Origin: Eledone cirrhosa
Lineage: Eukaryota
Length of the DNA stretch: 64,000 nucleotides
Reading direction: 5' to 3'
Assembly (NCBI GenBank): GCA_964016885.1
Contig: OZ024755.1
Coordinates: 2,976,001 to 3,040,000 of the forward strand
Shown here: one piece after another, positions 18,804-56,442 of the stretch
Numbering within the stretch: the stretch's first letter is position 1
Layout: every line of letters begins with the position of its first letter
Position numbers and translations under genes: made by a program
Notes under the pieces: generated by a model
Told to the model about the DNA's origin: nothing
What the model saw: only the letters and a program-made list of their open reading frames with translations
Database searches by the model: none

Positions 18804-19493
18804 GCGAGCGGCCCAAATGCAGAAAATAATCATAATAACAAACAATCTCTATAAATAATAGTTGACAAAATTTAGTAAATTATAGAGACAGAAAAAGTGA
18901 ACTGGGGCGCGTATATATTTGTCTGTGTGTGAGTTCGTATTTATATTATATATATATATATGCGTGTATATGTGTGTGTATATATGTGTGTTTATATTAA
19001 AACGTAATTAAGAACTTGGAAATGTGCAGACGGGAACAGTATAGGTTAGGCGACAGACGTCTTTTAATCTGACTATATAATTAACAAACATAATTTGATA
19101 AGAACAGACATGGTATTTGTATGTTTATATTTAATCAACGCTTTAACATCTATATGTGTGTGTGTGTGTGTATATGTGTGTCTGTGCGACTGTGTCTGTG
19201 TATTTGTCTATTTGTTTGAGTGTCTGTGTATGTATTTATATATAAGTGTGGTTTTGATATAAAAATATTTCTCTCGTTTATAATATTTATTTATTTTTAT
19301 TTGCGTTTCAGCCGAGGGGCTGAGGCCATGCTGGGACTCCGCCACAATATATATATATATTGAATGAAACAGTTCTAGTCCTGTAGAAGCTCTTCTATAT
19401 ATATATATATATATATATATACTTATATCTGTAAAAATGTATATAAATTTATATTTATATATGAGTATATATATAGATATATATATATATATT

Positions 19494-19680
19494 TAATATA
19501 GAAAAGGCTTCTACAGGACTAGAACTGTTTCATTCGGGAGAAATCATCAGGGCTTCCTAATGATTTCTCCCGAATGAAACAGTTCTAGTCCGGTAGAAGC
19601 CTTTTCTATATTAAATATTTATACACTGCTTTGTATTGAGTACCTTACTTATGTGGTTACCCTCGATTGAACCCGGGATA
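19494..19680 (+). mobile_element. Hammerhead element family C with 5' fold-back palindrome; ribozyme 19551-19601 carries two substitutions
   Basis: About 60-bp inverted arms; near-identical inverted copy at 23390-23585; partial copy at 19362-19400. Confidence 0.85.
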
Positions 19681-23284: not shown

Positions 23285-23378
23285 TAGGAAAAAAGTATGA
23301 CCCGACGGCAGAGCTCAGTATTGAGTACTCTGGTGCGTTATGGTCCATCTGGTTCCTTACCACAATTCCTTTGTTATA
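23285..23378 (+). mobile_element. Family D copy with internal deletion
   Basis: AGGAAAAAAGTATGACCCGACGGCAGAGCTC joined directly to the tail AGTATTGAGTACTCTGGTGCG (compare 56081). Confidence 0.8.
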
Positions 23379-23389
23379 TATATATATAA

Positions 23390-23578
23390 AGTTTATCCCG
23401 GGTTCAATGGAGGTAACCACAGTAAGTAAGGTACTCAATACAAAGCAGAGTATAACTATTTAATATAGAAAAGGCTTCTACAGGACTAGAACTGTTTCAT
23501 TCGGGAGAAATCATCAGGAAGCCCTGATGATTTCTCTCGAATGAAACAGTTCTAGTCCTGTAGAAGCCTTTTCTATAT

Positions 23579-23585
<7 letters not shown>
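23390..23585 (-). mobile_element. Hammerhead element family C with fold-back palindrome
   Basis: Reverse complement of 19494-19680; arms about 23458-23518 and 23523-23583. Confidence 0.85.
23473..23523 (-). ncRNA. Type I hammerhead ribozyme with intact core
   Basis: GGCUUC-CUGAUGA-U-UUC-UCCC-GAA-U-GAAACAG-UUCUAGUC-CUGUA/GAAGCC: 6-bp stem I, 3-bp stem II, 4-bp stem III, GUA cleavage triplet (predicted cut between 23479 and 23478). Confidence 0.8.
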
Positions 23586-23642
<57 letters not shown>

Positions 23643-42287: not shown

Positions 42288-42315
<28 letters not shown>

Positions 42316-42318
<3 letters not shown>

Positions 42319-42515
42319 GGAAAAGGTTCAAGCCCCCGACGGCAGAGCTCAAGCCGTTTCGACGGCTATATCTGGACTGATATAGCCGTCGATACGGGTT
42401 GAGTTCTGCCGTCGGGGTCCTGAACCTTTTCCTATTACCCACTCTACTACCCAAAGTATCGAGGACTCTGGTGCGTTATGGTCCACCTGGTTCCTTACCT
42501 CACTTCCTTCGTTAT
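42316..42515 (+). mobile_element. Family D element: 120-bp palindrome plus 80-bp tail
   Basis: Palindrome 42316-42435 centred on TGGACT; flanked by (TA)n. Confidence 0.85.
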
Positions 42516-54345: not shown

Positions 54346-54386
<41 letters not shown>

Positions 54387-54387
<1 letters not shown>

Positions 54388-54423
54388 AAGAATGAAAAAT
54401 AAGATAGATTGAAATTGAAGGGA

Positions 54424-54465
<42 letters not shown>

Positions 54466-54628
54466 TCCCTTCAATTTCAATCTATCTTATTTTTCATTCT
54501 TTCTTCTTCTGATAGACTAGCGTCCGAAACGTTAAGACCCTCTTCCTGCTATATCAAGCGTTAACCTAATATATTCCTTCCATATACTGTTGTACTGATT
54601 GTGTTGTTATTTATGTTTACCTTTTATA
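54387..54628 (+). mobile_element. Family F copy with a palindrome pivoting on (TA)n; decayed hammerhead at 54505-54537
   Basis: Arms 54387-54428 and 54461-54502 around a pure TA spacer. Confidence 0.8.
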
Positions 54629-55974: not shown

Positions 55975-56075
<101 letters not shown>

Positions 56076-56080
56076 GGTAT

Positions 56081-56280
56081 ATAGGAAAAAGTATGACCAC
56101 GACGGCAGAGCTCAAGCCGTTTCGACGGCTATTTCTGGACTCCAGAAATAGTCGTCGAAATGGCTTGATCTCTGCCGTCGGGGTCATACTTTTTCCTATT
56201 TCCCACTCTACTACCCTAAGTATTGAGTACTCTGGTGCGTTATGGTCCATCTGGTTCCTTACCACAATTCCTTTGTTATA
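56081..56280 (+). mobile_element. Family D element: 119-bp palindrome plus tail
   Basis: Palindrome 56081-56199 centred on CTGG-ACT-CCAG. Confidence 0.85.
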
Positions 56281-56442
56281 TAGGTATATATATATCTATA
56301 TATATATATATATATGTATGTATATATATATATAAATATATATACATATATATACACACACACACACATATGCACATATATATGCATATATCCCTATGTA
56401 TGTATATATATATATGTATGTATATGTATGTATGTATGTATG

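What the first reader, a model, noticed from the sequence alone, without database searches (positions are those of the whole stretch)
23390..23585. Family C: intact ribozyme locked into a palindrome that pivots at the 5' edge of stem I
Seen: the minus strand carries a full 51-nt hammerhead (GUA site). Immediately upstream of stem I the sequence folds back (CAGG-AAGC-CCTG) into a ~60-bp inverted copy. The copy at 19494-19680 has the same pivot and similar arm length. Inference: either the cDNA 3' end self-primes second-strand synthesis at a defined point, or the palindrome is part of the master RNA, where the antisense arm would silence the ribozyme and form dsRNA.
Basis: partly seen in the sequence, partly recalled or inferred. 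Interest (0 to 1): 0.75.

Follow-up and report, generated by a model that had tools for sequence, protein, structure and literature searches.

The report
Penelope leader copied from both ends
This small palindrome is one of thousands of short insertions of the front end of a Penelope-like jumping gene; copies across the genome stop at the first base of the ribozyme and often carry one extra G there, which likely means that both ends of a DNA cut copied the same capped, uncut RNA to its very start and were then joined head to head.

Summary
In detail: a 51-nt hammerhead motif on the minus strand sits in a 62-bp palindrome, and 19494 is an independent insertion with the same junction. Both are short copies of the 5' leader of a Hydra-type Penelope-like element (PLE). 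A 28-mer of it has 13,193 exact genomic matches, and a whole copy with an RT/GIY-YIG frame was found. The pivot is not one fixed point but a wall at the first base of stem I. That base lies 30 nt after a conserved TATA box. Copies joined straight to (TA)n carry a non-native G before it in 55 of 82 loci (native copies 1 of 24), the mark expected from a 5' cap. The two arms end at two fixed sites, and the same junction occurs with either arm carrying the tail (16:11). This argues against a palindromic master RNA and against single-cDNA fold-back, and favours two cDNAs running off a capped, uncleaved RNA. Head-to-head PLE palindromes are published. The scan proposed two-ended priming before, for retrozymes elsewhere in this genome. 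I did not find the start-site and cap evidence in my searches. No RNA data or cleavage assay exist here.

The parts
23391..23523 (-). Sense arm: PLE leader from -6 (first base of stem I; C3 of CUGAUGA = 0 = 23517) to site A (+126)
   Evidence: same ends in whole element L121 and in 66 of 90 sampled copies ending at site A into a simple repeat
23473..23523 (-). 51-nt type I hammerhead motif; predicted cut between 23479 and 23478 (after GUA); activity untested
   Evidence: compensatory stem I variants in read-through copies AGAUUC/GAAUCU 18, AGCUUC/GAAGCU 3, GGCUUC/GAAGCC 1, one-mismatch pairs 3
23519..23524 (.). Head-to-head junction; the minus-strand G at 23524 can be read as the cap-derived extra G, giving 2 nt of microhomology (inferred)
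   Evidence: (238 loci with this exact junction)
23524..23584 (+). Inverted, tail-less arm from C3 to site B (about +59/+60); lacks the 5' strand of stem I
   Evidence: site B is also the 3' end of whole element L121
23391..23456 (-). Tail (site B to site A, about 66 nt), present on one arm only
23585..23639 (.). (TA)n target at the site B end
23377..23388 (.). (TA)n target at the site A end
19489..19680 (+). Second, independent insertion: inverted arm 19489-19550, sense arm 19551-19680; core mutated (CUAAUGA)
19362..19413 (+). Solo fragment of the same family ending near site B in (TA)n, with no tail and no inverted arm

Best explanation
The palindrome is a short insertion of the 5' leader of a Hydra-type Penelope-like retroelement, likely made when both ends of one cut in (TA)n primed reverse transcription on the element's capped, uncleaved RNA and both cDNAs ran off its 5' end. 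Shown: the parent element, two fixed outer ends (A at +126, B at about +60), a wall of inner ends at -6/-7, TATA at -36 and CCAAT at -90 in read-through copies, a non-native G before -6, and both tail polarities. Inferred steps: (1) the pseudo-LTR promoter starts a capped Pol II transcript at the first base of hammerhead stem I; (2) the RT/GIY-YIG protein nicks both strands of (TA)n; (3) one 3' end primes at site A and the other at site B, in the 5' copy of these sites rather than the 3' copy, giving products like strong-stop DNA; (4) each cDNA runs to the cap, often adding a C, or stops earlier; (5) the free 3' ends snap back briefly or anneal to each other through a few nt of microhomology and are filled in. 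The palindrome would then be a by-product of integration, not a silencing device. The ribozyme is mostly not cut in the templates used. Whether one RNA molecule is copied twice or two RNAs of one source locus are used is open.
For: Parent: L121 holds (TA)n, hammerhead, tail, a 758-codon stop-free frame, TATA, a second hammerhead 5,966 nt on, and ends at site B in (TA)n. Sample: 90 copies taken in positional order from 13,193 matches (88 after dropping 2). 58 of 88 have an inverted arm; its inner end lies at -6..+3 in 42, +4..+36 in 13, <=-45 in 3, and never at -7..-44. 5,335 palindromes pivot within 17 nt at C3, control pattern 1. TATA at -36 in 11 of 15 read-through copies listed; the others are at -30, -38 and -43, and one of the two at -43 is a one-base TATA variant. 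Base before -6 in copies joined to (TA)n, window subfamily: G 55, A 12, T 11, C 4 of 82 loci (hand count); native base C 22, G 1, T 1 of 24 (hand count); Fisher p = 3e-8. An extra G marks capped full-length L1 insertions (PMC11702581). Polarity: tail-less arm longer in 36 against 15, p = 0.005; 27 against 11 of 40 at stem-I junctions, p = 0.014. Copies such as L049 and L089 have little or no overlap between the arms, as in twin priming. An anole PLE protein cuts and extends both strands, starts at two internal sites bounding the tail, and uses uncleaved RNA in vitro (PMC11167929).
Against: No RNA evidence for the start site or the cap. The wall is soft by a few nt: some (TA)n-joined copies, including L121, start at -8 to -10 (4 of 48 loci, hand count). 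In subfamily A the extra G (39 of 76) can also come from stem-I snap-back, so only subfamily B tests the cap. Recombination between the arms could flip a spacer after insertion and blur polarity, which weakens the 16:11 result; it does not explain an excess in the direction fold-back forbids. Snap-back fillers show that cDNA self-priming does happen. 5 of 88 copies start at +34..+42, so cleaved RNA may sometimes be used. All 90 sampled copies come from the first 41 Mb of contig C1, and the 28-mer favours subfamily A. The anole results are from another PLE clade.
Confidence: 0.75

Rival explanations
1. One cDNA primed at site A runs to the RNA 5' end, folds back on 2-7 nt of self-complementarity and copies itself to site B, where the endonuclease or microhomology joins it to the target.
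For: Snap-back fillers exist (L132, L165, L083; TCAG/TCA stubs in 15 of 82 loci). The two commonest subfamily B junctions can be drawn as 2-bp hairpins of a cDNA ending at -6 with or without the extra base (6 and 7 of the first 50 loci, hand count). Both window copies have the allowed polarity. Arms match within a copy (24 of 25).
Against: The tail-less arm is the longer one in 36 against 15 copies and 27 against 11. Copies with little or no arm overlap exist (L049, L089). Site B is a precise end and is also the 3' end of non-inverted copies (L121, window 19362-19413), so it behaves as a priming site.
Confidence: 0.12
2. The wall reflects something other than a capped sense 5' end: a 3' splice site next to stem I, as in D. 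virilis Penelope, or self-priming on an antisense RNA as proposed by Arkhipova et al. 2013.
For: A pyrimidine tract and CAG lie just 5' of stem I in subfamily A and 3 nt further up in B. An intron end maps to helix I in D. virilis (PMC4209133). The antisense self-priming proposal is in PMC3846280.
Against: No recurring upstream-exon sequence in the junction fillers, judged by eye. The wall keeps the same offset from C3 in A and B although the AG differs in place. TATA at -36 leaves no room for an intron. The extra G fits a cap on the sense RNA.
Confidence: 0.07
3. The palindrome is part of a master RNA; the antisense arm silences the ribozyme and makes dsRNA.
For: If transcribed, the hairpin (-98 kcal/mol) would swamp the hammerhead fold (-9 kcal/mol). 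The exact junction occurs at 238 loci.
Against: The same junction appears in different subfamilies (loop II TCCC 20, TCAC 4, others 6 of 30) and with either polarity. Most junctions differ. The parent element has no such palindrome. The copies lack the upstream promoter.
Confidence: 0.03
4. Longer inverted pLTR insertions were trimmed after insertion by central deletions down to the stem I edge.
For: Palindrome centres are unstable (recalled). 3 of 58 inverted copies pivot far upstream.
Against: Non-inverted copies joined to (TA)n stop at the same base and carry the extra G. No inverted arm ends at -7..-44.
Confidence: 0.03

Closest known systems
Hydra-clade Penelope-like elements (Craig et al. 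2021, PMC8557442; section 11 and passages read)
   Same: C-terminal GIY-YIG-like domain, RWR (RWK-like), DKT, CxCX5C linker, CxxC and CxH motifs, hammerhead in the pLTR, insertion in (TA)n, inverted 5'-truncated copy and a tail on one end.
   Different: Copy number of at least thousands, mostly short leader-only insertions. The tail is about 66 nt, against the 30-40 nt quoted. L121 spans about 6 kb because of a microsatellite-rich 3' region (Hydra: generally <3 kb). No tree was built.
Head-to-head inverted pLTRs with junction palindromes in Adineta vaga Penelope (Arkhipova et al. 2013, PMC3846280; passages and Discussion read)
   Same: Inverted pLTR shorter by the tail, palindromes at the junction, TATA and Inr-like motifs in the pLTR.
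   Different: That paper proposes self-priming on an antisense template. Here polarity and the extra G point to two cDNAs from a capped sense RNA.
Poseidon_Ac in vitro TPRT (Frangieh et al. 2024, PMC11167929; abstract, main text and part of methods read)
   Same: Two internal RT start sites bounding the tail, both strands cut and extended, AT-rich target, uncleaved RNA as the main substrate.
   Different: Another clade. The text I read does not explain inverted copies or map the RNA 5' end.
LINE-1 twin priming and cap-derived extra G (PMC11702581; passages read)
   Same: The second DNA end primes internally on the RNA; the inverted junction is sealed by microhomology; an extra G marks the full-length 5' end.
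   Different: In L1 the second site is variable and the arms barely overlap. Here both sites are fixed and both cDNAs usually reach the 5' end, so the arms duplicate.
Non-LTR retrozymes (bioRxiv 10.64898/2026.07.22.740005; part 1 of 5 read)
   Same: Type I hammerhead repeat tied to PLE pLTRs.
   Different: Retrozymes are defined there as tandem arrays with a hammerhead per unit. These are solo leader fragments of a coding element.

Membership tests
EN+ Penelope-like elements | Single ORF with RT and GIY-YIG endonuclease | tested here: met
   L121 frame of 758 codons, first Met at residue 46: YRDD at 392, YIG at 647. Pfam gives only a weak GIY-YIG hit, E 0.019, below cut-off, and no RT hit; RT is read from motifs.
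EN+ Penelope-like elements | Pseudo-LTR repeats with a hammerhead at both ends | tested here: met
   Two hammerheads 5,966 nt apart in L121; partial tandem in L122
EN+ Penelope-like elements | Inverted 5' copy and a tail on one end only | tested here: met
   58 of 88 copies inverted; tail on both arms in 0 of 40 and 0 of 30
Hydra clade | RWK-like, DKT, CxCX5C linker, CxxC/CxH around the conserved E and N | tested here: met
   RIRWR 81, DKT 161, CNCLNKEAC 611, CDLCISE 711, CPNCMH 736 against PMC8557442 section 11
Hydra clade | CCHH motif absent from the endonuclease | tested here: inconclusive
   Judged by eye only; the domain has two cysteines before YIG and one histidine after; no alignment to reference ENs
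Hydra clade | Insertion into (TA)n | tested here: met
   66 of 90 copies end at site A into a simple repeat, mostly TA
Hydra clade | Phylogenetic placement by RT tree | not tested
   Reference proteins were not fetched; the paper's supplements were not opened
Hammerhead ribozyme type I | Conserved core and three stems with covariation | tested here: met
   Core complete at 23523-23473; compensatory changes at two stem I pairs across subfamilies
Hammerhead ribozyme type I | G10.1-C11.1 closing pair of stem II | tested here: not met
   U.U in the window copy and in most of the family; no Rfam hit
Hammerhead ribozyme type I | Self-cleavage | not testable with these tools
   Needs an assay; metazoan PLE hammerheads cleave weakly or need protein (PMC4209133, PMC11167929)
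Non-LTR retrozymes | Tandem array of hammerhead-bearing monomers, non-coding | tested here: not met
   No tandem array covering the element at either window locus; the parent is coding

The most novel reading that the evidence does not exclude
PLE head-to-head palindromes are double strong-stop DNAs: a PLE enzyme routinely primes both ends of a double-strand cut at two programmed sites on a capped sense RNA whose first base is the first base of hammerhead stem I. The ribozyme then does not make the template's 5' end, and the antisense self-priming model is not needed. Thousands of natural copies in this genome record the start site, the cap and both priming sites at single-base resolution.
Probability: 0.5. 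Interest if true: 0.7.

Novelty: new member of a known kind. Interest (0 to 1): 0.5.

Why it matters
How PLEs make their tandem and inverted structures, and what their hammerheads do, are stated as open questions (PMC8557442, PMC3846280, PMC11167929). This family gives exact predictions: start at -6, priming at about +60 and +126, uncleaved capped template, either polarity. It also has an open-frame protein copy to test them with. The locus itself is ordinary: one of at least 5,335 such palindromes, with no sign of a host function.

Tried and rejected
Rfam scans of the window and the locus gave only miRNA-like hairpin and microsatellite hits and no hammerhead. No RNA holder was listed; contigs of four runs of unknown kind hold family sequence and varied junctions but cannot show starts, and none spans the locus. 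Searches turned out to be reverse complements of one pattern (59 loci), so polarity was read from 40 fetched loci instead. A-to-I test on arm mismatches: 10 editing-like against 3 opposite among 63 polarised mismatches in 43 copies; inconclusive, crude polarisation. PDB search of the ORF found nothing meaningful. Alignment A1 held one wrongly cut row and was not used. RT stalling at stem I was rejected by reasoning: RT meets and unwinds the 3' strand first, so a stall would fall near +44, not -6. The cleavage site as main 5' end was rejected (5 of 88 near +39). Local duplication of 19494/23390 was rejected (no shared flank). An assembly artefact is unlikely: the arms differ, the tail is one-sided and there are thousands of loci. 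Look-ups of earlier findings by sequence and by cap/TATA words returned nothing.

Full report
Coordinates below are relative to C3 of CUGAUGA (0 = window 23517, minus strand). Counts marked 'hand' were counted by eye from the first 100 rows a tool listed, collapsed to distinct loci.

Observation. The minus strand at 23523-23473 is a complete hammerhead motif. It sits in a 62-bp palindrome with a 4-nt loop and 1 mismatch; the hairpin folds at -98 kcal/mol, z -21. The copy at 19489-19680 has the same junction in the opposite orientation, about 96% identity, a mutated core and different flanks. The motif alone folds no better than shuffles (z -0.7), has U.U where G10.1-C11.1 is usual, and gets no Rfam hit. 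Stem I nevertheless covaries across subfamilies: 22 of 25 read-through copies pair fully, in three variants.

What it belongs to. A 28-mer of the unpaired part has 13,193 exact matches in the 3.0-Gb genome, control 0. Locus L121 is a whole element: (TA)n, hammerhead, tail, first ATG at +175, a 758-codon stop-free frame, a microsatellite-rich 3' region, CCAAT and TATA, a second hammerhead, and an end at +60 in (TA)n. Its motifs match the description of Hydra-clade PLEs. Pfam support is weak (GIY-YIG E 0.019, no RT hit) and no tree was built. The window copies are the first 132 nt of this unit plus an inverted copy of about 60 nt.

Outer ends. I took the first 90 of the 100 listed matches, all on contig C1. 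I dropped L108 (duplicate of L106) and L117 (element sequence identical to L037), leaving 88. L050 and L097 share a filler and may be one event; both were kept. The sense arm ends at +126 (site A) into a simple repeat in 66 of 90. The inverted arm's outer end falls at +45..+66 by alignment in all 58 inverted copies; by inspection it is about +60 or the TA-like +53 (site B). Site B is also the 3' end of L121 and of a solo fragment at window 19362-19413. Two RT start sites bounding a tail were shown in vitro for an anole PLE, whose protein cut and extended both strands.

Inner ends. The inverted arm stops at -6..+3 in 42 of 58, at +4..+36 in 13, at -45 or beyond in 3, and never between -7 and -44. 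The sense arm of these copies stops at -7..+3 in 33 of 58. Microhomology makes single calls uncertain by 1-2 nt. Genome-wide, 5,335 palindromes pivot within 17 nt at C3, control 1. The window's junction is 6 of the first 50 (hand) and 238 loci in all.

Why the wall. Read-through copies carry TATA at -36 in 11 of 15 listed (others -30, -38, -43, -43) and CCAAT near -90 in most, in subfamilies whose spacer sequence differs. Position -6 is 30 nt after TATA and is a pyrimidine-purine step; these spacings are the textbook Pol II ones (recalled). Non-inverted copies joined to (TA)n start at -7 or later in most cases and reach -8 to -10 in 4 of 48 (hand). In the window's subfamily the base before -6 is G in 55 of 82 loci, A 12, T 11, C 4 (hand). 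The native base is C in 22 of 24, G in 1 (hand; Fisher p 3e-8). The target would supply A or T, and stem-I snap-back would too. Eleven of the 55 have a TCAG stub that could supply the G; 44 do not. In subfamily A the figure is 39 of 76 (hand) but is confounded by snap-back. An extra G marks capped full-length L1 insertions. I infer a capped RNA starting at the first base of stem I. The window junction is then a cDNA ending at the cap joined through 2 nt of microhomology. Only 5 of 88 copies start near the cleavage site, in line with uncleaved RNA being the main substrate in vitro.

One cDNA or two. A fold-back of the tail-bearing cDNA needs the tail on the arm that reaches furthest 5'. Among 55 short inverted copies the tail-less arm reaches further in 36, the tail arm in 15, 4 ambiguous (p 0.005). 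At junctions made through stem I complementarity (59 loci; 40 fetched) the tail is on the short arm in 27, the long arm in 11, and neither in 2 (p 0.014). With the window's exact junction the tail is on the -6 arm in 16, the other arm in 11 and neither in 3 of 30, two pairs being local duplicates. Eight inverted copies begin their sense arm at +43 or later, some with little or no overlap, like L1 twin priming. That hints that both primers sit on one RNA and that full palindromes arise when the site A cDNA displaces the site B one; this is inference. The arms share loop II in 24 of 25 copies against 0.28 expected, so both come from one source locus, or were homogenised later. Against my reading: snap-back fillers show real self-priming, spacer flips could blur polarity, a CAG splice-site-like motif lies near the wall, and no RNA data exist.

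Relation to print. Inverted pLTRs, tails and junction palindromes are described, with antisense self-priming as the proposed cause. D. virilis Penelope has a TATA-less internal promoter in the pLTR, unlike the upstream TATA seen here. Paper searches listed no paper that, in the parts I read, ties PLE inverted junctions to a capped start site or to twin priming. The library lacks most subscription papers, including the 2005-2006 Arkhipova reviews (not seen), and I opened no supplements. Seen: PMC8557442 passages and section 11; PMC11167929 parts 1-2 of 4; PMC4209133 parts 1-2 of 4; PMC3846280 passages and Discussion; PMC2377424 and PMC11702581 passages; the 2026 retrozyme preprint part 1 of 5. 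Earlier agents of this scan proposed two-ended priming for retrozyme arrays in this genome and named a Hydra element. My two-site reading was noted before that look-up; their notes are not independent evidence.

Verdict. A real feature and a known kind of structure in a new, very abundant Hydra-type PLE family. The locus is ordinary. The family-wide evidence on start site, cap and two-ended priming makes an open mechanistic question directly testable. Interest 0.5.

Noticed in passing
window 42309-42510 and 56075-56285; fragment at 23287-23378: A second family with the same layout: head-to-head arms, a one-sided tail that shares the motif GTATTGAGTAC with this family's tail, and (TA)n flanks. 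The two copies pivot a few nt apart; its ribozyme core was not worked out.
   Followed up: partly
window 54384-54505: Inverted repeat of about 60 bp centred on a (TA)n run.
   Followed up: no
window 18387 (+) and 51679 (-): Further hammerhead-like cores of other families.
   Followed up: no
L126:3129-5591 (+): Another PLE-like stop-free frame of 821 codons with a DKT motif and an asparagine-rich linker, next to a copy of this family; no Pfam hit.
   Followed up: no
L121:1400-4460: The parent's 3' region is about 3.6 kb, and the parts read are largely microsatellite; it is shared, with length changes, by other long copies.
   Followed up: no
L001, L003, L011, L018: One arm has loop II CTCTCG and the other CTCCCG in four copies, including the window's. 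This could be a mutation hotspot or two templates.
   Followed up: no
L031, L046, L112, L028: Read-through copies pivot upstream of the promoter wall (-45 to -169; L028 at a local palindrome near -20), so longer templates give longer palindromes.
   Followed up: partly
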